Source of the DNA: Clostridiales bacterium Firm_18
GTDB lineage: Bacteria > Bacillota > Clostridia > Monoglobales > Firm-18
Assembly: GCA_001604215.1 (NCBI GenBank)
Contig: LVAX01000054.1
Span: 11,180 to 75,179, forward strand
Length of the DNA: 64,000 bases
Direction: 5' to 3'
In this document: piece after piece, positions 34,502 to 63,516 of the stretch
Layout of the letters: every line of letters starts with the position of its first letter
Numbering within the stretch: the first letter of the stretch is position 1
Position numbers and translations under genes: made by a program
The notes under the pieces: model-generated
Databases searched by the model: none
Seen by the model: only the letters and a program-made list of their open reading frames with translations
What the model was told of the DNA's origin: nothing

Positions 34502-36187
34502 GTGATTGCACTGAAAAATAAAATTATTGCCGCTGCTTTGTCTCTTGCCATAATTTCCGCGCCGAGCATGTATATCCTGTATAAATCCAGCAGCCCGGCA
34601 GCCGCTACGGCAAAATCATATATAAAGCATTTAATAAACAAAGCATCTCTTCCTCCCCTTTTAAACGATAAAAAAGGCCTGGGGACAATTCTAAACAAAA
34701 CATCGCCGCAGAAAGATAAAATAATATATGAAACGGACAGCGTCAAACGGTTTGTAAACCAGGCGGAAGGCTTTTATTTTGATGTGCCCAAAAATTTTGA
34801 ATTGTTGACCGACAGGCCCTACGCCTCGGCCGAAAGCAGCGAAGGCAAGATAGTTGTTTCGAGAGAATGGGTGTTCGAAAACAACGCGGACGAATATATT
34901 GCCTATTACCTGAATAGATTTATTTTAAACCCCGAGTTTCAAAAAGAAAATAATATAACACTGACGGAAAACAAAAGCAAAGGCAGCATGCAAACAATCA
35001 GTGCTGTTATTAACGACCTTCCGGACGATAAGTTCGACAAGTACACATATGTATTCATTAAAACAAGAACGCCGAACTTTTACCGGTTAATGTTTAAATA
35101 CAAATCGGACAACACGGAGTTTGAAAGCTGTATAGAAGAAGTAATCAGCTCCTTTCAATATTTTTCGCCGAGCGGGAAAACCTCCGCTCCGACAGGCTTT
35201 GAACCGGTGATACCCGCCCAGTGGACGAAAGAAACAACCGGTCTGTATAAAAAAATACAAAACACCGACAGCCTGTATTGGGGGATTTTCACTCAGGACA
35301 TATTCGATATGGGGATTAAAAAAACTATTCCCGCGCTGGAAAAAAAGCTTGATTATAAATTCCCTGTCATCCTTTGTTATTTGCAATTAGGCAGTGAATT
35401 CCCCCTTGAATTTATGAACAAAAACTACAGGGAAAACAGGCTTGCAGAGCTTACGCTTCAAACAACATTTTCAAATAACGAGCGGCTTTTCGGCTATACC
35501 CCCTTTCTGGATATATACAGGGGAAAAAAAGACGAACAGATACGCACTTTTGCGCGCAAGGCAAAAGAATTCGGCCGCCCGTTTTTATTCAGGCTCAACA
35601 ACGAACCCAACTCCGACTGGACAAGTTATTCGGCGGTTGTTGCAATGAGCGATCCGGACATATATGTGGATAATTGGAGAAGGTTTTACCGTATCTTTAA
35701 AGAAGAAGGGGTTAACAATGCAATCTGGATTTTCAATCCCAACGACCGAAGCTACCCGCCCTGCAACTGGAACGATTTTACCGCCTTTTATCCCGGCAAT
35801 GAGTACGTTCATTTTATCGGAATAACGGGATATAACAACGGGACTTATTATAAAAACGAAAAATGGAGAGAGTTCGATGCCATATACGGTGACATAAGCC
35901 GCAGGTACCTGCCCGTTTTCGAAAAATTCCCGTGGATTATTACGGAGTTTTCTTCAAGCTCCATCGGCGGGGATAAAGCCCTTTGGATAAGGAACATGTT
36001 TAAAAACCTGCACAAATATCCTAATATAAAAATTGCGGTTTGGTTTTCGTACGCCGACTTTGAAATTAATACCGATGAAGAAAAAAAAGTTTCCCGCCCA
36101 TATTGGCTTGATGAAACCGAAGAAACGCTGAATGAGTTTAAAAAAGGGCTGCAAAAATATAACGCAGGCCCCTTATTTAACCATTGA
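34502..36187 (+). CDS. membrane-anchored GH26-like (clan GH-A) glycoside hydrolase
   Basis: GTG start with an N-terminal TM segment. FLFRLNNEPNSDW (acid/base Glu), FYPGNEYVHFIGITGYNNG and WIITEFSSS (nucleophile Glu) resemble GH26 signatures. Family assignment is tentative. Confidence 0.7.
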   Translation: MIALKNKIIAAALSLAIISAPSMYILYKSSSPAAATAKSYIKHLINKASLPPLLNDKKGLGTILNKTSPQKDKIIYETDSVKRFVNQAEGFYFDVPKNFELLTDRPYASAESSEGKIVVSREWVFENNADEYIAYYLNRFILNPEFQKENNITLTENKSKGSMQTISAVINDLPDDKFDKYTYVFIKTRTPNFYRLMFKYKSDNTEFESCIEEVISSFQYFSPSGKTSAPTGFEPVIPAQWTKETTGLYKKIQNTDSLYWGIFTQDIFDMGIKKTIPALEKKLDYKFPVILCYLQLGSEFPLEFMNKNYRENRLAELTLQTTFSNNERLFGYTPFLDIYRGKKDEQIRTFARKAKEFGRPFLFRLNNEPNSDWTSYSAVVAMSDPDIYVDNWRRFYRIFKEEGVNNAIWIFNPNDRSYPPCNWNDFTAFYPGNEYVHFIGITGYNNGTYYKNEKWREFDAIYGDISRRYLPVFEKFPWIITEFSSSSIGGDKALWIRNMFKNLHKYPNIKIAVWFSYADFEINTDEEKKVSRPYWLDETEETLNEFKKGLQKYNAGPLFNH

Positions 36188-36212
36188 AAAATTCATTGGT
36201 ATAAAATATAAT
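36184..36212 (+). promoter_or_regulatory. sigma-A promoter driving the leader element and the 36388 gene
   Basis: TTGAAA (36184-36189), exactly 17 nt, TATAAT (36207-36212). The -35 overlaps the stop codon of the GH26-like gene. Confidence 0.65.
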
Positions 36213-36228: not shown

Positions 36229-36341
36229 TAAAGCGTTCGGGCGCGTAGCGCTTTCCCGAACGCAACCGCTCGCCGCGCGAGCGTAAGCGAAGGCGGATTC
36301 ATTCCGCCGGAGCGCGAAATTGCGCGTATTTTGCGCAATTT
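36229..36341 (+). repeat. 113-nt GC-rich multi-hairpin element, copy A (candidate cis-regulatory leader RNA)
   Basis: 105/113 nt are identical to 61739-61851 in the same orientation. Four paper-folded hairpins. It sits between the promoter and the RBS of the downstream gene. Confidence 0.8.
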
Positions 36342-36387
36342 TGCATAAAAATAAAAAAAAAGACTTCTCGTAAGGAGTAAATGCGCC

Positions 36388-38424
36388 ATGACCAAAAAAA
36401 CAATATCCTTTGCAATTGTTTTTATATTATCGTTTAATATGGCTTTGGCAAGTGCAAATGTTATATATGATAATGTGTCCGAAACAGTAATTACAAAAGG
36501 GGTAACCGAAAAGTACATACACAGGTTTTCTTCAAACGGCTGGCAGCGAATATATACCCTGAAAATCGATCTTAACGAAAATTTCCTTTCTCTGAAAACA
36601 CTCACATCCAAAAAAGGGATAAATACCAGGGAAAATGTATTGGAGCTTGCAAACCAATGGAACGCTCTTGCGGCCGTAAATGCGGACTTTTTCCAGCCGT
36701 CCGGGAGCAATCCTTCGCGCGCCAGCGCCATCGGCGCGGTGGTTGACGACGGACATTTGCTTACAACCCCCGCAAGGGGAAAACAAATGGCAACGGTGGC
36801 AATGGATTATAATAATATCGTTTCTATGGGGATATGGGACCAATACATAAAAATAGTATTGCCGGACGGACAGGAAAAGCAGATTTTCCACATCAACAAA
36901 TATTATGACGACGGAGCCCTTGTTATATTCAACAGCGACTGGGACGAATATTCACCGGGAGCACCTATCGCCCCTATTGAAATGGTTGTCGAAAACGACA
37001 CCGTAACGGATATCAGAGTATGGCAGGAAGGGGTTAAGTTCCCGGAAAACAGTTACGTTATTGCTTCCACTACGGCCGATGACACTTTTTTAACGGATAA
37101 CTTCGAAATCGGAGATACAGTAAACATTGTAAGCTGGTTTGAGCCGAACCCCGAAAAGTACAAAATGGCGGTAGGCGCAGGCACAATGCTGCTGAAAGAC
37201 GGTAACGACGCACCCGTAACACACAACATATCGGGGATTCAGCCCCGGACCGCCATGGGTACCGACAGGACGGGAAAAACAGTATATCTTGTGACGGTTG
37301 ACGGCCGCCAAAGCGCAAGTGCGGGAATGTCCCTTGGCGAACTTAGAAATTACATGCGTGAAATCGGGTGCTATAATGCCGTAAATTTTGACGGCGGGGG
37401 CTCCACTACATTTGTGTCAAAGCACCCGCAGGAAAGCCAAGCAACACTGAAAAACGTAGTTTCGGACGGCGCAATGCGAAAAGTGGCAAACGCGGTAGGA
37501 ATTGTTTCGGATTCTCCTGTCGGCGCCCCTGCTATACTTGATATTACCGGGCAGGATAAAGGCATATATGCCAAATCGGCGTGTGAATTCAGCGTTAAAG
37601 TATATGACGAATATTACCACAGTTTAAATGTCCCGATGGATGAAATCAAACTCAGCCTGGACGGCATCGAAGGGTATTTCGCGGGAAATGTGCTTTACCC
37701 TCTTTCCTCGGGCTATGCGACCATAACGGCGGAGTATAAGTCTTTAAAGACATCGGTTCATAAATTTGTAAGGCCTCCTCTTCAAACTCCCGATACGGAT
37801 ATAATGAGGCAGCCGGAAAATGCCGAAACCCAGGGGACAAAAATTGCGGTCTTGGGCAGCACCGAATATAAAACAATATTGGGAAAGCTGTACGCGTTAA
37901 GGGCCGTGTCAAAGGCAAATTCCCAGGCCGACGCCATAGCAATTGCGGGCAAAGCCGCCGGAAGCATTGTAAGCAAAGCCGGTATCCCGGCAGTTTACGG
38001 GGAATATTATTATGCCGCTTACAAGAAAAACAATATAATAATCCAGCTTGACAACTCAAAGGGCGGCCTTTTAAAATCGGATCCCAACCAATGGAGCAGG
38101 TTCTTATCCCAATTAGACGATATTCCGGTAAAAAACGTTATCATAACGCTTTCAAGCCCCCTCGATTCATTTAACGACAAGCATGAGCTTAATCTGTTTA
38201 AGCAAATTTTAGAGGAAAAGCTTGTTGAAAAAAACAAAAACGTATTTGTCGTATACGACAGTACGGAAAATACCGTCAACATAGAAAACGGGATAAGATA
38301 TTTCGGGCTTAAAGGAATCAAGGATGTAAAGTCGACTAACTTTACATCCTTGAAGGAATGTTGCTATTTGCTTATTACATCCGACGGTGATGATGTTTCG
38401 TACCAGATAAAAACGATTTTATAA
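36388..38424 (+). CDS. secreted phosphodiester glycosidase (DUF2233/NAGPA-like) family protein, 678 aa
   Basis: Signal peptide MTKKTISFAIVFILSFNMALASA. AVNADFF...RTAMGTDRTGKTVYLVTVDGRQSASAGMSLGELRNYMREIGCYNAVNFDGGGSTTF is the family core. Confidence 0.85.
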   Translation: MTKKTISFAIVFILSFNMALASANVIYDNVSETVITKGVTEKYIHRFSSNGWQRIYTLKIDLNENFLSLKTLTSKKGINTRENVLELANQWNALAAVNADFFQPSGSNPSRASAIGAVVDDGHLLTTPARGKQMATVAMDYNNIVSMGIWDQYIKIVLPDGQEKQIFHINKYYDDGALVIFNSDWDEYSPGAPIAPIEMVVENDTVTDIRVWQEGVKFPENSYVIASTTADDTFLTDNFEIGDTVNIVSWFEPNPEKYKMAVGAGTMLLKDGNDAPVTHNISGIQPRTAMGTDRTGKTVYLVTVDGRQSASAGMSLGELRNYMREIGCYNAVNFDGGGSTTFVSKHPQESQATLKNVVSDGAMRKVANAVGIVSDSPVGAPAILDITGQDKGIYAKSACEFSVKVYDEYYHSLNVPMDEIKLSLDGIEGYFAGNVLYPLSSGYATITAEYKSLKTSVHKFVRPPLQTPDTDIMRQPENAETQGTKIAVLGSTEYKTILGKLYALRAVSKANSQADAIAIAGKAAGSIVSKAGIPAVYGEYYYAAYKKNNIIIQLDNSKGGLLKSDPNQWSRFLSQLDDIPVKNVIITLSSPLDSFNDKHELNLFKQILEEKLVEKNKNVFVVYDSTENTVNIENGIRYFGLKGIKDVKSTNFTSLKECCYLLITSDGDDVSYQIKTIL

Positions 38425-40684: not shown

Positions 40685-40776
40685 TGGCGGAGAAGGAGAG
40701 ATTCGAACTCTCGCGCCGGTTTCCCGACCTACACCCTTAGCAGGGGCGCCTCTTCAACCTACTTGAGTACTTCTCC
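40685..40776 (-). tRNA. tRNA-Ser (anticodon GCU)
   Basis: Manual cloverleaf: acceptor GGAGAAG/CTTCTCC, anticodon loop CT-GCT-AA, long variable arm, T-arm GAGAG-TTCGAAT-CTCTC, G73, encoded CCA. Confidence 0.9.
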
Positions 40777-40781
40777 GTTTT

Positions 40782-40871
40782 TGGAGGAGAGGGGCGGATT
40801 CGAACCCCCGGACGGCGTAAACCGTCACCGGTTTTCAAGACCGGCTCTTTAAACCACTCAGACACCTCTCC
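40782..40871 (-). tRNA. tRNA-Ser (anticodon UGA)
   Basis: Acceptor GGAGAGG/CCTCTCC, anticodon stem CCGGT/ACCGG with loop CT-TGA-AA, long variable arm, encoded CCA. The T-stem (GGGGG/CCGCC) has one G-G mismatch and the discriminator is U, not G. Confidence 0.85.
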
Positions 40872-52487: not shown

Positions 52488-54440
52488 CTATAAATCGGCA
52501 TCTGCACTGCTCGGCAAGTAAAGATACTTTGTCGGCACCGTTTCCATTTCATTGTGTGGTCCGTACCAACGCATGATGCATGTGGCACCATAGATAAAAT
52601 CGGCATATTCAATGCGTATTTTATATTTTTGCCCGGCTACTGTATCAAAGGTGCATGATATTATTTCATCGCTGTGATAATCCCATCCGTCAAGCACCGG
52701 TTCATCGTTTATATAGACTCTTATAGCATCGTCAACAATAAATTCAAGGGTTGTTTCCTGTGTGAATTTAGCCTCTATATAGCCTTCCATAACCCCGTAA
52801 AACGCGTCGCCCGTCAATTCCGGCGGGGAATCGGCGCCCCATATGTAATTAATATTGTTAACCTCGGTATACTCTTCTTCTACCTGTCCTTCTCCGTCGA
52901 GGGTATAAAAGGTGTTTAACAAGCCTTCCCCCGTCTTGCTGACAACATTTAAAAATACCGGCTCGCTAAAATTATCTTGTGTTTGTTGTGTGATATAAAA
53001 CGCAGATTCCGGGACAAGCTGCATGGGAACTTCCTCCGCCTCCCAGAACAGGAATACCGCGGCATACAACGGAATCTGCTGATATTCCACCGTAATGGGG
53101 TAATATTCTCCTGCTTCAAGGTAAACCGGATTTTGCGCAATTGAATAATCAAGGCTTAAAAGCCCCCATTTGTTAATTATTTCTTGATTGTTAACATTTA
53201 CAATTATACCGTCATCCGAATATGTTTTAAATATGTAATTGCCGCTGACGCTTGGCCTTAAATACCCTTCCCATTTAATTGCAAATGTTTCTTCATCTAT
53301 TACCTCATGGGGAGAGTCATACATAAAATTAAACGCAATATTGGAATCTATTCTGATAAGCCTTAAAGCCGATTCGTTATCAAAGCCGCTCGCGTCATAA
53401 TAATGACCTAAAACTCCGTTAACATAATTATCATCGTCTTCCGGGGGTAATGTATCGTATTGCGGGAATCTAAAGTCGGCTCCCGCTACATTCTCCTGAT
53501 TAATTTTCGCGGAACCGTACATTTGCAGCGTTCTGGCATATAATGCGCCGTTTATTTCGATGTTGCCATACATTACAATATCCGAATTCGGAGCGTACGC
53601 CAAGCCGTTGATAATTACTGTTCCGTTTTCGATTTTAAGGCTGTCGGCCACATATATGTGCCCGTTCAATTCAGTATTGCCCGTCATCTCAATATTTCCG
53701 GACGGGACATAAATATTTGCAGCCATTCTGACTGTTCCGTTAAAAAGTGTTGTTTCGCCGCTCTGTCCGTTTATGTAAATATAAAGCTGTTTGTTATCGC
53801 CATTTTCATTAATATATGCTTCACCGCCAAAGTCAAAACTCTCGGTATAAAGATATACTTTTCCGTCACCGATAATATTGATGGTGCCGTTTACCGATAT
53901 ACTGTCCGCCCTTATATGAAGTATCTTTCCGTCCGATACATCAAAGGTCAGCTTGTTGGGATTCCCGCCTATTTCTATGTTGGAATACCAGCCGCTTTCG
54001 CTGACGGTAACCTCGGTATTGGTAACATCCAAAGCGCCTTTTTCCTCCAATTCCGGCAATCCGTTTTCAAAAACTATCGGATCTTGTACGGTATATATAC
54101 CCTCCTCGGCAATAATACCTTTGCCAAGTAAGTTACTTAAACCGGTACCCACCTTTGATGAAGGGGCTACTCCGGTGTTGGGGTATACCTTGCCCCCTCC
54201 TCTTATAAAATTCCCCCACCAAGGGTTTATATAATAGGTTCCCGATTGCATTATTACATTACCGGTAATATAAGAACTTCCATCCATATCAAGAGTTGAT
54301 ACGCCACTCGATTTGTCAGGGCCGGTCAAAAAAACAGCATAATCGCCGCTAAAATCGGCAACCGTATCGGCTGCGGCAACGCTGCTTAAACAAATTAGCA
54401 ATAATAATGAAATTATCCCGCATATAAATAACTTTTTCAT
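52488..54440 (-). CDS. secreted 650-aa protein with an N-terminal beta-helix-like repeat region and two PA14 domains
   Basis: Signal peptide MKKLFICGIISLLLLICLSSVAA. Repetitive NG-x-I/V segments. PA14 pattern twice (GHYYDASGFDN...FAIKWEGYLRPSVSGNYIFKTYSDDGIIV and NTFYTLDGEG...FYGVMEGYIEAKFTQETTLEFIVDDAIRVYIND). Confidence 0.85.
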   Translation of the reverse strand: MKKLFICGIISLLLLICLSSVAAADTVADFSGDYAVFLTGPDKSSGVSTLDMDGSSYITGNVIMQSGTYYINPWWGNFIRGGGKVYPNTGVAPSSKVGTGLSNLLGKGIIAEEGIYTVQDPIVFENGLPELEEKGALDVTNTEVTVSESGWYSNIEIGGNPNKLTFDVSDGKILHIRADSISVNGTINIIGDGKVYLYTESFDFGGEAYINENGDNKQLYIYINGQSGETTLFNGTVRMAANIYVPSGNIEMTGNTELNGHIYVADSLKIENGTVIINGLAYAPNSDIVMYGNIEINGALYARTLQMYGSAKINQENVAGADFRFPQYDTLPPEDDDNYVNGVLGHYYDASGFDNESALRLIRIDSNIAFNFMYDSPHEVIDEETFAIKWEGYLRPSVSGNYIFKTYSDDGIIVNVNNQEIINKWGLLSLDYSIAQNPVYLEAGEYYPITVEYQQIPLYAAVFLFWEAEEVPMQLVPESAFYITQQTQDNFSEPVFLNVVSKTGEGLLNTFYTLDGEGQVEEEYTEVNNINYIWGADSPPELTGDAFYGVMEGYIEAKFTQETTLEFIVDDAIRVYINDEPVLDGWDYHSDEIISCTFDTVAGQKYKIRIEYADFIYGATCIMRWYGPHNEMETVPTKYLYLPSSADADL

Positions 54441-54499: not shown

Positions 54500-56300
54500 T
54501 TTAGCTTTCTGTGCTATGACACAGAATAAAGATAGCGTTGCGGACTTTTTATAAAAACCCGAAGCCTTTAAATAGGACTTCTCAATTGGAGATTAAAGCC
54601 GCAGGTTTATCTCAAATGTTTATAGTTGGATTAGCCCGACATTTGCTCGGAGTTATTATTTATTACAAGGTTACGAGGATAAATCCCAGTGGCTATGCCG
54701 CAAAACGCTAATATTATTTTTGGAGGAGTACACTATGGTATTTGTCGGCATTGATATTGCCAAACACACTCATTATGCTTGCGTTACAGACGATGCACAG
54801 AAAATCTTATCTGCTCCGTTTCCCTTTGAAAACGACCAAAAGGGGTTCGCAAAGCTACTATCTTCATTTGCAAGTTATGCAAAAACCGATGTTATTATCG
54901 GGCTTGAGGCCACATCTGTTTATGGCGAGAATCTTATCTCGTATCTTGCTAATTTAGGCTACGAAATTGCTCTCATCAATCCCATAGAAACATCATCTGT
55001 GCGAAAGAAAAATATTCGCAATGCCAAAACTGATAAGATTGATGCTAAAGTTATCTGCAAGTATCTTGCAACAGAGGAATATCGATTTTTACAATCCAAA
55101 GAGTTGCAAACCTTACAACTGCGTGGCTTATGTCGGTTTCGTCAAGCTCTCAAAAAATCAAATTCACGCCTAAAAACACAACTTGTTTCATACCTTGATG
55201 TCAGCTTTCCTGAATACCCATCAGCATTTTCAACCGTTCACGGCAAAGGTGCTTATGCAGTATTATCGGAATTTCCATCTGCAAGTGCAGTTTCAAAAGC
55301 TAATATTACAAAGCTTACCAACCTATTGTGCAAATCATCTCATGGCAAATTCAATCGCAGCAAAGCAGAAGAACTAAAAGCACTTGCAAAGCGTTCTGTT
55401 GCCGCCACTGATTGCGATATGGGTTTTCAAATCAAGCAAACTATAACGCAAATTCAGCTTATTTCTGCGCAGATGAATGATACTGAAAAACAGATTGTTA
55501 CTGTATTTGAGAGCCTTAATTCGGTTATAGCTACAATTCCTGGTATAGGTGCAATTAATGGGTCTATGATTTTATCAGAAATTGGTGATATTAGGCGTTT
55601 TTCAAATCCAAATCAGCTTATTGCATTTGCAGGGCTTGATCCAATCATTAGGCAATCAGGTAACTTCAGGGCGAAAACAACACGAATGTCAAAGCGTGGC
55701 TCTGGTGTTTTGCGTTATGCTCTGATTAATGCGGCTTGGAATGTTTCGCTTAACAATGTAACCTTTAAGGAATACTACAGCGAAAAATTTTCTCAAAAAG
55801 GTCGCCATTATGCCGCGCTCGGTCATGTTGCCGGAAAACTTACCAGAGTAATTTTTGCTATGCTCAAAAATGAAATGGTATTTAACTTACCTTAATGAAT
55901 AGCATTTCAAAATTTACTGCATACTAACTTTGCTTTTTCTCACAAACAGGATAAGGCTCTACAGAAGTGTAACCTGAGCGGTTTATGAGATTTTACAAAG
56001 CGTATGCGGAGTGGGTTTTTCCTGCTCCATTTTTTATGTGCACAAGCTTATGTGCCATACGCTTGGAAAACTAATGCGATAAACTTTGGGGTTTGGGGTG
56101 AAACCCCATCCATACCTTTAAAAACGATTGCCCTTGGCAGTCTATTTGTTGTACATTTTTTTAATCAAGCTTGACTCCCATAATTTACATATTATTTTTT
56201 TTCGTTTTCCTATTGACTTTTCATAGTTGGTCTCCTGTTTTGTTAATTACATATATAATAACAAAAATGTCGTAATGAAATACATCATATGCGGCAACCG
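54500..56300 (+). mobile_element. IS110-family insertion sequence (boundaries approximate)
   Basis: Single DEDD-type transposase gene flanked by ~250 nt (5') and ~400 nt (3') of structured non-coding DNA. The family lacks clear terminal inverted repeats, so the ends cannot be fixed from one copy. Confidence 0.55.
54735..55895 (+). CDS. IS110-family transposase/recombinase
   Basis: N-terminal DEDD domain start MVFVGIDIAKHTH. C-terminal Transposase_20 pattern IPGIGAINGSMILSEIGDIRRFSNPNQLIAFAGLDPIIRQSG. ATG 54735 is preceded by GGAGGAG. Confidence 0.92.
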   Translation: MVFVGIDIAKHTHYACVTDDAQKILSAPFPFENDQKGFAKLLSSFASYAKTDVIIGLEATSVYGENLISYLANLGYEIALINPIETSSVRKKNIRNAKTDKIDAKVICKYLATEEYRFLQSKELQTLQLRGLCRFRQALKKSNSRLKTQLVSYLDVSFPEYPSAFSTVHGKGAYAVLSEFPSASAVSKANITKLTNLLCKSSHGKFNRSKAEELKALAKRSVAATDCDMGFQIKQTITQIQLISAQMNDTEKQIVTVFESLNSVIATIPGIGAINGSMILSEIGDIRRFSNPNQLIAFAGLDPIIRQSGNFRAKTTRMSKRGSGVLRYALINAAWNVSLNNVTFKEYYSEKFSQKGRHYAALGHVAGKLTRVIFAMLKNEMVFNLP

Positions 56301-56501
56301 GCTATCATATCCTTTACAAAAAGGACTTAGACCCTATGGCTTTGCGTAACTGCCTTTAGGCAGCTTTGCTTTTCTCAAATACTTAATTACAATAACTTAT
56401 TATGCATTATACAACATAATTGCGAAAAAATCAATATGTTTTTAAAAATATTTTTTTTAATTTTCCCGGGGAAAATCCCTCAAATTCAATAAACTCCGCA
56501 A

Positions 56502-61596: not shown

Positions 61597-61628
61597 ATGA
61601 ACATATGAACTGTTGTTCATATGTTCAT
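61597..61628. promoter_or_regulatory. 14-4-14 perfect inverted repeat, candidate ArsR-family operator
   Basis: ATGAACATATGAAC (61597-61610), TGTT, GTTCATATGTTCAT (61615-61628). Contains the TGAACA half-site core typical of SmtB/ArsR operators. Abuts the -10 box. Confidence 0.75.
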
Positions 61629-61655: not shown

Positions 61656-61709
61656 TACTTTTTTAAAAAATAATGAAACTGAATTGTAAAAAACATTTGT
61701 CGAATTTTC

Positions 61710-61718
61710 TGGTATAAT
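61710..61718 (+). promoter_or_regulatory. extended -10 promoter driving leader element copy B and the SLH-GH18 gene
   Basis: TGgTATAAT (61710-61718). No convincing -35. Confidence 0.5.
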
Positions 61719-61738
61719 GTAATCAGTGTTTACAGAAA

Positions 61739-61851
61739 TAAAGCGTTCGGGCGCGTAGCGCTTTCCCGAACGCAACATTGCGCCCCGCGAGGGAAAGCGT
61801 AGGCGGATTCATTCCGCCGGAGCGCGAAATTGCGCGTATTTTGCGCAATTT
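61739..61851 (+). repeat. 113-nt GC-rich multi-hairpin element, copy B (candidate cis-regulatory leader RNA)
   Basis: Collinear with 36229-36341 at an offset of 25510 nt. There are 8 substitutions, all within 61777-61800. It ends 60 nt upstream of ATG 61912. Confidence 0.8.
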
Positions 61852-61911
61852 CCTATAACTATAATTACAAAGAAACAATATTATCCCCTTTGAAAGGATT
61901 GTACCGGTATT

Positions 61912-63516
61912 ATGCAAAAACAACTGATTTCAGCGATAATAATATTAATTTTGTTGTTTTCCGCCGGCGCTTATGCCTTAAAAGGCACCGATAGCCACTG
62001 GGCGGGCCCATACGCGCAGGCTCTTTTTGAGCGCGGTATTTTCAAGGGCGACGACAGCGGAAACGCCAATCTTGCCGATAATATAAAAAGGGCCGAATTT
62101 CTTGCCCTGCTTGTGCGCGCCGTTTACCCGGACGCCGATATTAAAAACGGTGCCAAAAGCTTTATTGATGTTCCTTACGGTTTATGGTATTATGATATAG
62201 CAAGCTTTGCGAAACAAAAAGGCATTGTTACTGGCGACGAACAGGGCAGGCTGCTGCCTGAAAATAACATAAAACGTGAAGAAATCGTGCTGATGCTTGT
62301 GCGCGCATTAGGCTTAAAAGGCGGCGCGGCAAGCTTTACCGACGTTGACAGCAGCTATGTTTATTACAACGAAATATGCGCCGCTGTTGAAAGCGGTATA
62401 ATAAAGGGTTATCCGGACGGAAGCTTTTGCCCGAAAAATCCGGCTACCAGAGGCGAGTCGGCGGCAATGATTGCCCGTATGCTTGGTATTGAATTTGAAG
62501 CACCGAAGGAAGACGAAAACACAGCAAACGAAAAAATAAACCTTACATGGCATCATATTACAAGAACCGGTACAAGCGACACGGGCGAGTACATGGAAGG
62601 AATTAACGTAATTTCTCCCACATGGTTCAGAATAAGAAGCTTTACGGAACCACCGGCTCCATATGAATATAAATTAGACGGTGACAATATTTATTACCTG
62701 CAGGATTTAGGCAGCGAGCAATATGTAAAGGACGCGCACAGCAAAGGGTATAAAGTATGGGCGCTGTTTAAATCCAACGATTTTTCGCCCAGGAACAACA
62801 GCGGTTTTCTAAACGACGAAGCGGCAAGAAAATCGGCGGTTTCGCTTATGAGGCAAATGATTGATAAATATAATCTTGACGGTATAAACATGGATTTTGA
62901 AAATATGCTTGTAGAGGACAAGGATATATACACCCGGTTTGTACAAGAAATGAGCGAAATGATGAAGGACACCGGCGCGGTGCTGTCCGTTGACGTTACA
63001 AAATATTCTCCCCTCGGCGGAACATGGTCATTGTGCTATGACAGGGCACGCCTTGCCCAACATGCGGACTATATAGCCCTTATGGCATATGACCAGCATA
63101 ATGCTTCAAGCTCCAAGGCGGGGAGTGTGGCAGACTTAAAGTGGACCGAAGAAGCGGTGCTCAAAACCCTCGAAGAAGTTCCTGCGGAAAAGCTATTGCT
63201 CGGTATTCCTCTATATACAAGGCTTTGGCAGTCCGGTGACGGTAAGGTTTTAAACTCAAGCGCCATAGGAATGCAAACAGCCAAAAACAAGCTTGCCGAA
63301 GTCAACGTATCGGCCGTTTATGACGAATATACAGGCCAAAACTATGCCAAGTGGGAAAATAGCGGTGTTGTCTTTGAAATCTGGCTGGAGGATGAAACTT
63401 CCTTGAAAAACAGGCTCGACCTTGTTAAAAAATACAGCCTTGCGGGTGTGGCCTCGTGGAGCAAGCAATTTGCCGATTCGAATGCATGGGCTGTTATAAG
63501 CAATAACCTTAAATAA
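61912..63516 (+). CDS. SLH-anchored GH18-family glycosidase (YaaH/SleL-like peptidoglycan or chitin hydrolase fold)
   Basis: Signal peptide, then SLH repeats (FIDVPYGLWYYDIASFAKQKGIVTGDEQGRLLPENNIKREEIVLMLVRALG and FTDVDSSYVYYNEICAAVESGIIKGYPDGSFCP). GH18 catalytic motif LDGINMDFENM. Confidence 0.85.
   Translation: MQKQLISAIIILILLFSAGAYALKGTDSHWAGPYAQALFERGIFKGDDSGNANLADNIKRAEFLALLVRAVYPDADIKNGAKSFIDVPYGLWYYDIASFAKQKGIVTGDEQGRLLPENNIKREEIVLMLVRALGLKGGAASFTDVDSSYVYYNEICAAVESGIIKGYPDGSFCPKNPATRGESAAMIARMLGIEFEAPKEDENTANEKINLTWHHITRTGTSDTGEYMEGINVISPTWFRIRSFTEPPAPYEYKLDGDNIYYLQDLGSEQYVKDAHSKGYKVWALFKSNDFSPRNNSGFLNDEAARKSAVSLMRQMIDKYNLDGINMDFENMLVEDKDIYTRFVQEMSEMMKDTGAVLSVDVTKYSPLGGTWSLCYDRARLAQHADYIALMAYDQHNASSSKAGSVADLKWTEEAVLKTLEEVPAEKLLLGIPLYTRLWQSGDGKVLNSSAIGMQTAKNKLAEVNVSAVYDEYTGQNYAKWENSGVVFEIWLEDETSLKNRLDLVKKYSLAGVASWSKQFADSNAWAVISNNLK

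What the first reader, a model, noticed from the sequence alone, without database searches (positions are those of the whole stretch)
61739..61851. Copy B of the leader element: substitutions between the two copies preserve base pairing
The 8 differences between copies are patterned. G36275/C36282 in copy A become C61785/G61792 in copy B, which turns a G-C pair of the apical H2 stem (CGC-GCGA-GCG versus CCC-GCGA-GGG) into C-G. T36270/A36290 become G61780/T61800, which turns U-A into G-U at the base of the same hairpin. One change lies in the 3-nt bulge (36284 T to A). Three lie in the linker just 5' of H2 (36267-36269, CGC to ATT). So 4 of 8 changes form two structure-preserving pairs while about 85 flanking nucleotides are invariant. 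That pattern is expected for selection on an RNA (or DNA) hairpin, not on a peptide. With only two copies the statistical weight is small, but the pattern is striking.
Basis: seen in the sequence. Interest (0 to 1): 0.75.

Follow-up and report, generated by a model that had tools for sequence, protein, structure and literature searches.

The report
Dispersed four-hairpin intergenic repeat element
The supposed "leader" is one copy of a roughly 125-base, four-hairpin repeat scattered through the genomes of an uncultured anaerobic Clostridia-like lineage, and it has landed just behind the promoters of two cell-wall glycosidase genes; the pair-preserving substitution is real, but it reflects a repeat family that keeps its hairpins rather than a gene-specific regulatory leader.

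Summary
The two copies (36229-36352 and 61739-61862, + strand) and their 8 differences are exactly as described. No Rfam family matches. A metagenome scan and contig look-ups gave 14 more copies. They occur as full units, head-to-tail tandems, and forms truncated after H1, H2 or H3. They lie between convergent genes, in 3' UTRs ahead of terminators, and sometimes antisense to both neighbours. Orthologous loci of both window genes in related species keep the native promoters but lack the element, so both window copies are insertions into short 5' UTRs. On 11 copies the four hairpins are 98% paired, with 7 doubly changed pairs (0 of 500 shuffles reach this). The apical pair 36275/36282 (G-C to C-G) is never broken. 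The basal pair 36270/36290 is unpaired in 4 of 11 copies, so it is not maintained. Verdict: a new family of a known kind, a modular dispersed hairpin repeat like BOX, BIME or SPRITE, and not a dedicated leader. Whether selection acts on RNA or DNA, and how the element spreads, remain open.

The parts
36229..36352 (+). Copy A of the repeat, a full unit H1-H2-H3-H4 plus an A-rich tail (the tail degenerates to about 36361)
   Evidence: CM R1 147 bits, E 6e-39; direct repeat D1
61739..61862 (+). Copy B of the repeat (the finding), a full unit
   Evidence: CM R1 150 bits, E 1e-39
61743..61773 (+). H1 of copy B: 9-bp stem GCGUUCGGG/CCCGAACGC with an apical GCG-UAG-CGC mini-stem (copy A: 36233-36263)
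   Evidence: MFE folds. 100% paired in 14 copies, with double changes at 3 pairs in L035, L029b and L055
61780..61800 (+). H2 region of copy B: bulged hairpin CGC-CCC-GCGA-GGG-AAA-GCG (copy A: 36270-36290, which prefers the alternative 7-bp hairpin 36267-36283)
   Evidence: Pair 47-54 G-C 7 / C-G 4, never broken; basal pair broken in 4 of 11. Alternative hairpin. Energies
61802..61818 (+). H3 of copy B: GGCGGA-UUCAU-UCCGCC (copy A: 36292-36308)
   Evidence: 100% paired on 11 copies. G-C to A-U double change in L038 and L042; extra A-U pair in L043
61826..61852 (+). H4 of copy B: 10-bp stem GAAAUUGCGC/GCGCAAUUUC with a 7-nt loop (copy A: 36316-36342). A lenient scan flags it as terminator-like
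   Evidence: G-C to A-U double change in L035
61710..61718 (+). Native extended -10 promoter element TGGTATAAT of the SLH-GH18 gene. The predicted start is about 14 nt before the element
   Evidence: The block AATTGTAAA..ATGTCG..TCTGtTATAATG is conserved in L048, L050 and L053, which lack the element. No canonical -35
36184..36212 (+). Native promoter TTGAAA-17-TATAAT of the NAGPA gene, overlapping the stop of the upstream GH26 gene. The predicted start is about 10 nt before the element
   Evidence: The same AACCATTGAAa-N17-TATAAT is present in L054 and L055, which lack the element
61912..63516 (+). Gene downstream of copy B: secreted protein with 3 SLH domains and a GH18 domain
   Evidence: Pfam
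36388..38424 (+). Gene downstream of copy A: secreted NAGPA phosphodiester glycosidase
   Evidence: Pfam

Best explanation
Copy B and copy A are members of a dispersed, modular, non-coding repeat family of about 125 nt. The unit has four independent hairpins, H1 to H4, in fixed order, an AAAT/AAAGCG 5' end and a CCTATAAATTAAAAA 3' tail. The family occurs in an uncultured Bacillota/Clostridia lineage from anaerobic digesters. SHOWN: it is multi-copy and occurs at unrelated loci. It forms head-to-tail tandems and nested 3'-truncated forms (H1 only; H1+H2; H1-H3 with a short tail). Both window copies are insertions about 10-14 nt downstream of the predicted starts of pre-existing promoters, in what are short 5' UTRs in relatives. 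All four stems are kept by compensatory change, while loops and linkers drift. INFERRED: the element spreads as a non-autonomous mobile or recombining unit into A/T-rich intergenic DNA. Its hairpins are maintained because they are what is recognised or tolerated. My preferred reading is that they act in the transcript, as stable stem-loops in UTRs that buffer mRNA decay or weakly terminate, as described for REP/BIME, BOX and SPRITE. In this window the practical effect would be a 5' UTR lengthened by about 125 nt carrying four stable stem-loops (-58 to -66 kcal/mol) on two cell-envelope glycosidase mRNAs. This is a by-product or a local co-option, not the element's reason for existing.
For: No Rfam match at the gathering threshold or at E<=10. 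A metagenome scan gave 12 loci that share only the element. Module maps show tandem and truncated forms. Context: L029, L031 and L055 lie between convergent genes; the L055 copy lies between a stop codon and a terminator; L038 is antisense between eno and an aldo-keto reductase gene; L035 is antisense between rsmD and hisIE; L036 is antisense upstream of rnmV. Empty orthologous sites with conserved promoters exist for both window copies. One site is polymorphic within a species: L061 has a copy upstream of GT2 and L029 does not, with flanks about 98% identical. Short-read unitigs break inside the element at every locus. Covariation: 98.1% of cells paired, 7 pairs with double changes, 0 of 500 shuffles reach this, and slid controls give 0-1. 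RNAalifold independently recovers H1, H3 and H4. The ADurb.Bin193 copy is 82-84% identical although orthologous proteins are 61-66% identical.
Against: No terminal inverted repeats, no target-site duplication and no cognate transposase were identified, so mobility is inferred from distribution only. Only about 16 copies were sampled and no complete genome was available, so copy number is unknown. Both window copies are sense and sit just after transcription starts of two secreted glycosidase genes, which leaves room for local co-option. No copy was found in about 125 kb from the relatives, including the two closest. At a density of 1 per 30 kb that is only weak evidence of absence. Sense orientation is commoner than antisense (about 10 to 3), which a purely DNA-level selfish element would not require.
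Confidence: 0.8

Rival explanations
1. A dedicated cis-regulatory leader RNA (riboswitch-like or protein-binding) that controls cell-envelope glycosidase genes, with H2 as a specificity hairpin.
For: Both window copies are sense and lie 10-14 nt after predicted transcription starts, upstream of secreted glycosidase genes. The folds are strongly structured, z -4.5 to -5.3. Stems covary. L061 has a copy upstream of a GT2 envelope gene.
Against: The element is absent from orthologous 5' UTRs in five related loci that keep the promoters. Most other copies are 3' of genes, between convergent genes, tandem, truncated or antisense, next to unrelated genes such as eno, hisIE, rsmD, rnmV and thiF. No conserved expression platform exists: the GCGCG mini-hairpin that could compete with H4 is broken in L029a and L036, and the ribosome-binding sites lie 30-45 nt beyond the element. 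No Rfam family matches.
Confidence: 0.06
2. A DNA-level element: the hairpins form in single-stranded DNA and are recognised by an HUH/Y1 transposase (REP/RAYT or IS200/IS605-derived palindrome-associated element) or serve as protein-binding sites on the chromosome. RNA structure would be incidental.
For: Both strands fold about equally well, -58 to -66 kcal/mol. Copies occur in both orientations relative to genes. No inverted terminal repeats are present, as in IS200/IS605-type elements. Sequence conservation of 80-87% across lineages fits recognition by a protein. H1-only copies behave as solitary palindromes.
Against: No Y1 or RAYT gene was seen near any copy; the genes scanned next to copies are housekeeping, and the IS in L034 has its own 16-bp inverted repeats and is separate. 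The four hairpins have unrelated sequences, unlike the matching left and right end hairpins of IS200/IS605. The three A-C mismatches all occur in the two antisense copies L035 and L036, where they read as G-U on the gene-sense strand, while G-U pairs occur in sense copies. That hints at RNA-level selection, but the numbers are tiny.
Confidence: 0.2
3. A multi-copy small-RNA gene, or a decoy RNA for an RNA-binding protein, transcribed on its own.
For: The size is about 125 nt with four hairpins. GGA motifs occur at the H3 top and in the GGAGCG linker. H4 is flagged terminator-like. Sequence conservation is high across lineages.
Against: The copies share no promoter. The promoters in the window belong to the host genes and exist without the element in relatives. 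Tandem copies are separated by about 10 nt. Truncated forms are common. H4 is followed by only 3-4 U.
Confidence: 0.05
4. A recent local duplication or gene conversion within this genome, with the 'compensatory' changes arising by chance.
For: The two window copies are 93% identical and their flanks align weakly.
Against: The same element is found at 12 or more unrelated loci and in ADurb.Bin193. The flanking promoters are native to each locus. Family-wide covariation exceeds all shuffles and slid controls.
Confidence: 0.02

Closest known systems
BOX elements of Streptococcus pneumoniae and BOX-type repeats of S. suis (PMC3049150)
   Same: Small, non-coding, intergenic and multi-copy. Built from modules in fixed order, with variable module content and size. 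Modules fold largely independently into stable stem-loops. They were first suspected to be regulatory motifs because some sit next to interesting genes, then shown to be dispersed repeats that can still modulate neighbouring genes.
   Different: No sequence relationship was tested or expected, since the phylum-level lineage differs. BOX has terminal inverted repeats and target duplications and an amplifiable internal boxB module. Here no inverted termini were seen, variation is by 3' truncation and whole-unit tandems, and the element is GC-rich (56%) in an AT-rich genome.
REP / BIME elements with RAYT transposases (PMC2817692; PMC3184786)
   Same: GC-rich extragenic palindromes. They are frequent after genes and between convergent genes. 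Stems are kept by compensatory change. Effects on mRNA stability and termination are known. Solitary H1 units resemble single REPs.
   Different: A REP is a single 20-40 nt palindrome preceded by GT[A/G]G, and BIMEs alternate orientation. Here the unit is about 125 nt with four different hairpins, GTAG sits in the H1 loop, tandems are head-to-tail, and no RAYT gene was seen.
SPRITE (pneumococcal Rho-independent-terminator-like element) and other terminator-like repeats (PMC3049150)
   Same: Enriched at 3' ends of genes and between convergent genes. H1-only copies (AAAGCG...CGCTTTAT) and H4 are hairpin-plus-U-rich and look terminator-like.
   Different: SPRITE is AT-rich with a single 18-bp duplex and a long U tract. 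The full unit here has four hairpins and only weak U tracts.
MITEs such as RUP, Correia and bcr1
   Same: Non-autonomous size, intergenic location, insertion near promoters with possible effects on expression, and presence/absence polymorphism between strains.
   Different: Defining inverted terminal repeats are not present. A target-site duplication could not be established. No parent insertion sequence was identified.

Membership tests
Riboswitch / dedicated cis-regulatory leader | Conserved position in the 5' UTR of orthologous or functionally related genes | tested here: not met
   Orthologous loci L048, L050, L053 (GH18) and L054, L055 (NAGPA) keep the promoters and lack the element. Other copies are 3' of genes, between convergent genes, or antisense.
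Riboswitch / dedicated cis-regulatory leader | Match to a curated RNA family | tested here: not met
   No Rfam 15 hit over the element at the gathering threshold or at E<=10.
Riboswitch / dedicated cis-regulatory leader | Conserved expression platform (alternative terminator/antiterminator, or sequestering of the ribosome-binding site) | tested here: not met
   The mini-hairpin that competes with H4 is not conserved (L029a, L036). The ribosome-binding sites lie outside the repeat.
REP / BIME (RAYT-associated) | Single 20-40 nt imperfect palindrome preceded by conserved GT[A/G]G (PMC2817692) | tested here: not met
   The unit is about 125 nt with four different hairpins, and GTAG lies in the H1 apical loop.
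REP / BIME (RAYT-associated) | Clusters with alternating orientation | tested here: not met
   The tandems in L029, L038 and L042 are head-to-tail.
REP / BIME (RAYT-associated) | High copy number (>100 per genome) and extragenic location | tested here: inconclusive
   All copies are extragenic. There are 2 per 64 kb here and 9 contigs in one metagenome. No complete genome was available.
REP / BIME (RAYT-associated) | Cognate RAYT (Y1 transposase) gene flanked by the repeats | not tested
   Only genes next to copies were scanned, and none is a Y1 transposase. The genome-wide search could not be done.
BOX-type modular repeat | Composite of distinct modules in fixed order with variable module content | tested here: met
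   H1 / H1+H2 / H1-H3+tail / H1-H4 forms and whole-unit tandems.
BOX-type modular repeat | Terminal inverted repeats and target-site duplication | tested here: inconclusive
   By reading, there is no complementarity between the AAAGCG... 5' end and the ...CCTATAAATTAAAAA 3' end. The empty sites are too diverged to read a duplication.
BOX-type modular repeat | Sequence homology to boxA/B/C | not tested
   No BOX models were available in the tools. No similarity was found to any phage or plasmid record.
MITE | Terminal inverted repeats matching an autonomous insertion sequence | tested here: not met
   No inverted termini. The IS next to L034 has its own 16-bp inverted repeats 137 nt away from the copy. 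The IS110 in the window is unrelated.
Integron attC site | One long imperfect palindrome with R''/L''-L'/R' boxes at the 3' end of promoterless cassettes in an array | tested here: not met
   There are four separate local hairpins. The loci are scattered among housekeeping genes.
Intrinsic terminator | GC-rich hairpin followed directly by a U tract | tested here: inconclusive
   H4 passes a lenient scan with AAUUUCCUAU. H1-only copies are followed by UUUAUU. In L055 a proper terminator follows the element.

The most novel reading that the evidence does not exclude
The element may be more than a selfish repeat. It could be a structured RNA module under sequence-level purifying selection: it is 80-87% identical between lineages whose orthologous proteins are only 61-66% identical. 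In that case it would work with an unidentified trans-acting partner, either an RNA-binding protein or nuclease, or a hairpin-recognising recombinase. In this organism it may have been co-opted into the 5' UTRs of cell-envelope glycosidase genes. The H2 region might then exist as two interchangeable hairpin 'cassettes' (7-bp/triloop against bulged/GNRA) that could specify different partners or switch conformations.
Probability: 0.15. Interest if true: 0.65.

Novelty: new member of a known kind. Interest (0 to 1): 0.3.

Why it matters
The main value is as a correction. A striking two-copy 'covarying leader' turns out to be a dispersed repeat, the same trap that BOX elements once set. For annotation, this family breaks short-read assemblies of these digester Clostridia and could be mistaken for a riboswitch candidate. 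For biology, it adds a GC-rich, four-hairpin modular repeat from an uncultured Bacillota lineage to a class known mainly from Proteobacteria and streptococci. It also gives two clean natural 'insertion against empty site' comparisons for asking how such insertions alter 5' UTR function.

Tried and rejected
1. Rfam at the gathering threshold and at E<=10 over both copies gave only noise hits (SpF03, U6, ctRNA) at E>=0.075.
2. The genome-contig scan with TTCATTCCGCCGGAGCGCG gave only chance hits (L012-L025; L018 lies inside a coding region). In hindsight the pattern was unlucky, because the ADurb.Bin193 copy differs in that 19-mer.
3. Three viral-contig scans gave nothing or a chance H3-like 20-mer in GC-rich coding DNA.
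4. blastn against plasmid and phage records gave no match.
5. I looked for further or degenerate copies in the window with filters off and found none.
6. I checked whether the DDE insertion sequence beside L034 is the parent element. It is not: it has its own inverted repeats and is separated from the copy by a terminator.
7. I considered the promoter similarity between copies A and B as part of the repeat and rejected it, because each promoter is conserved at its own locus in relatives that lack the element.
8. I considered a terminator/antiterminator switch around H4 and rejected it, because the competing mini-hairpin is not conserved.
9. The enlarged alignment A6 inflates H3 and H4 'covariation', because AT-rich flanks of truncated copies (L040, L034, L038, L042) are forced into the model. 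I rely on A5 and on H1 in A6.
10. attC, tRNA-derived and peptide-coding readings were rejected on anatomy.

Full report
OBSERVATION. The window holds two collinear copies of a roughly 125-nt element at 36229-36352 and 61739-61862, both on the + strand. Either side of that stretch, 36230-36266 and 36291-36342 are identical. Sub-patterns of 31 and 25 nt each occur twice, against 0 expected from shuffles. A covariance-model search with filters off finds no third copy in the 64 kb. Both strands fold well beyond shuffled controls: + strand -66.1 and -58.5 kcal/mol, z -5.3 and -4.5.

NOT A KNOWN RNA FAMILY. Rfam 15 finds a c-di-GMP-I riboswitch and two tRNAs elsewhere in the window. It finds nothing over the element, either at the gathering threshold or at E<=10 on 300-nt excerpts.

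LOCAL CONTEXT.
- Copy A lies 43 nt after the stop of a GH26-like gene, behind a TTGAAA-17-TATAAT promoter. It is 36 nt ahead of the ATG of a secreted NAGPA phosphodiester glycosidase gene, whose ribosome-binding site lies in between.
- Copy B lies behind an extended -10 element (TGGTATAAT), divergent from an arsR/P-type ATPase operon. It is ahead of a secreted gene with 3 SLH domains and a GH18 domain.
- The element starts about 10 nt (A) and 14 nt (B) after the predicted transcription starts. This is inferred from the -10 positions.

THE ELEMENT IS A DISPERSED, MODULAR REPEAT.
- The first hint came from contigs. Every short-read unitig that carries either downstream gene begins inside the element, 75 or 83 nt before the ATG.
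- A metagenome scan with a 19-mer from H1 returned 22 loci. Twelve are real copies and the rest are chance hits in GC-rich DNA. All-against-all blastn shows these loci share only the element.
- Module mapping gives these forms:
  - full H1-H2-H3-H4 units: L031, L035, L036, L043;
  - two full units head-to-tail: L029;
  - H1-H3 with a short AAACTAAATT tail: L034, L038, L042;
  - H1 plus part of H2: L040, L041;
  - H1 alone, with an extended AAAGCG...CGCTTTAT palindrome: L030, L039, and a second unit in L038.
- Gene context:
  - L029, L031 and L055 lie between convergent genes.
  - In L055 the copy sits between a stop codon and a terminator.
  - L038 is antisense between eno and an aldo-keto reductase gene.
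  - L035 is antisense between rsmD and hisIE.
  - L036 is antisense upstream of rnmV.
  - Neighbouring genes have no common function.
- Orientation is sense to the adjacent gene in about 10 of 13 scorable cases. That is a bias, not a rule.

BOTH WINDOW COPIES ARE INSERTIONS. Orthologues of the GH18 gene at 75%, 71% and 66% protein identity (L048, L050, L053) sit in the same arsR-ATPase/GH18 synteny. They keep the promoter block AATTGTAAA..ATGTCG..TCTGtTATAATG. None has the element, and in L050 the 5' UTR is about 30 nt. Orthologues of the NAGPA gene at 68% and 61% identity (L054, L055) keep AACCATTGAAa-N17-TATAAT overlapping the GH26 stop. They have short 5' UTRs without the element. So the promoters are native to the loci, and the element arrived between promoter and ribosome-binding site. 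Within one species a site is polymorphic: L061 has a copy 138 nt upstream of a GT2 gene where L029 has none, with flanks about 98% identical.

DISTRIBUTION. The model finds no copy in about 125 kb sampled from relatives, with one exception. That exception is a full copy in Firmicutes bacterium ADurb.Bin193 (L055 6812-6936, 121.6 bits). It is 82-84% identical to the window copies, although orthologous proteins are only 61-66% identical and orthologous intergenic DNA is barely alignable (49% column identity). This points to constraint on the sequence itself or to transfer between lineages.

STRUCTURE AND COVARIATION.
- On 11 distinct copies aligned to the model, 98.1% of cells form standard pairs. 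Seven pairs show changes on both sides. No shuffle out of 500 reaches the observed paired fraction, the double-change counts or the covariation score. Sliding the 3' partners by 1 to 3 columns gives 0-1 such pairs.
- H1 has independent double changes in L035 (C-G to U-A), L029b (G-C to C-G) and L055 (two pairs).
- H3 changes G-C to A-U in L038 and L042 and gains an A-U pair in L043.
- H4 changes G-C to A-U in L035.
- Variation is concentrated in unpaired columns: 20 of 43 are variable, against 19 of 70 paired columns, most of which are compensated.
- RNAalifold on nine full copies independently recovers H1, H3 and H4.

THE H2 CLAIM ITSELF.
- The apical pair (36275/36282 in A, 61785/61792 in B) is G-C in 7 copies and C-G in 4, and is never broken. 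With two more partial copies it is 9 and 4.
- The basal pair (36270/36290) is U-A 4, G-U 2, U-G 1 and unpaired 4, so it is not maintained.
It has 93.5% of cells paired and 0 of 500 shuffles reach this.
- It has a competitor. In 'type I' copies, including copy A, positions 36267-36273 pair with 36277-36283 in a 7-bp hairpin at -11.7 kcal/mol, against -8.0 for H2.
- In 'type II' copies, including copy B, H2 wins at -8.7 against 0.0.
- In that alternative, 36282 pairs with 36268 (G-C 5, U-G 4, broken 2). RNAalifold prefers the alternative.
- The two sequence types look like two short haplotypes with a few recombinants (L034, L042). The H2 covariation therefore amounts to roughly one evolutionary event.
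- H2 is therefore plausible but not settled. The hairpin nature of the element as a whole is well supported.

RNA OR DNA? Both strands fold similarly. One small hint favours RNA. Outside the doubtful basal pair, the three A-C mismatches all occur in L035 and L036, the two copies antisense to their neighbours, where they read as G-U on the gene-sense strand. G-U pairs occur in sense copies (window copy A, L061). The numbers are far too small to decide.

MECHANISM. The distribution, the modularity, the insertion status of both window copies and the stem conservation are shown. The rest is inferred: the element spreads as a non-autonomous unit into A/T-rich intergenic DNA. The flanks read AAAT|AAAGCG at the 5' end and ...CCTATAAATTAAAAA at the 3' end. 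No inverted termini, target duplication or transposase were found. The insertion sequence next to L034 is separate, and the IS110 in the window is unrelated. By analogy with REP/BIME, BOX and SPRITE (PMC2817692, PMC3184786, PMC3049150), the likeliest activity is at transcript level. Stable stem-loops in UTRs would affect decay or weakly terminate. H4 and H1-only copies pass a lenient terminator scan. For the two window genes the consequence would be a longer, highly structured 5' UTR.

COMPARISON AND NOVELTY. The element works like, and is best filed beside, BOX-type modular repeats and REP/BIME. It fails the defining features of REP: a single short palindrome with a 5' GTAG, and alternating orientation in clusters. 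It fails the defining feature of MITEs, inverted termini. It also fails those of riboswitches and attC sites. It is a new family of a known kind. Interest is modest. The residual interesting possibility is that the cross-lineage sequence conservation and the two alternative H2 'cassettes' reflect a trans-acting partner or local co-option.

Noticed in passing
window 54720-55895 (+), with 56290-56380 (-) and 52488-54440 (-): An IS110-family transposase gene (DEDD_Tnp_IS110 + Transposase_20) sits between a strong c-di-GMP-I riboswitch (72 bits) and the next minus-strand gene, a 650-aa secreted PA14/DUF7305 protein. The insertion sequence appears to have separated the riboswitch from the gene it controlled, about 1.85 kb away. 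The IS ends and any bridge RNA were not mapped.
   Followed up: partly
window 61597-61628: A 14-bp-arm palindrome, ATGAACATATGAAC-TGTT-GTTCATATGTTCAT, overlaps the perfect TTGACA-17-TATAAT promoter of the arsR/P-type ATPase operon (minus strand). It is conserved in L048, L050 and L053. It is probably the ArsR/CadC-type operator.
   Followed up: partly
window 61683-61719; L048, L050, L053 upstream of the GH18 gene: The GH18 promoter has a conserved extended -10 element but no canonical -35. Instead, the boxes GAATTGTAAA and ATGTCG are conserved across four species, which suggests an activator site or an alternative sigma factor (GH18 YaaH/YdhD-like genes are sporulation genes in Bacillus). Not analysed further.
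   Followed up: no
L040 1078-1423 and L043 1-346: Two metagenomic contigs are 99.4% identical up to the end of H1 and unrelated after it. This is either a genome rearrangement at the repeat or an assembly chimera joined through it.
   Followed up: partly
L053 9765-9860: The ADurb.Bin193 orthologue of the GH18 5' UTR is about 250 nt long. It carries two similar hairpins of its own (ccgaaaaacatggtttttcgg and ctgaaaactgcatggtttttgcag), unrelated to the element. They may belong to another local repeat or leader.
   Followed up: no
L034 227-242 and 2318-2333: A DDE_Tnp_1 insertion sequence of about 2.1 kb with perfect 16-bp terminal inverted repeats lies 137 nt downstream of a truncated copy of the element.
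   Followed up: yes
window 40685-40871 (-): Two adjacent tRNA-Ser genes with anticodons GCT and TGA.
   Followed up: no
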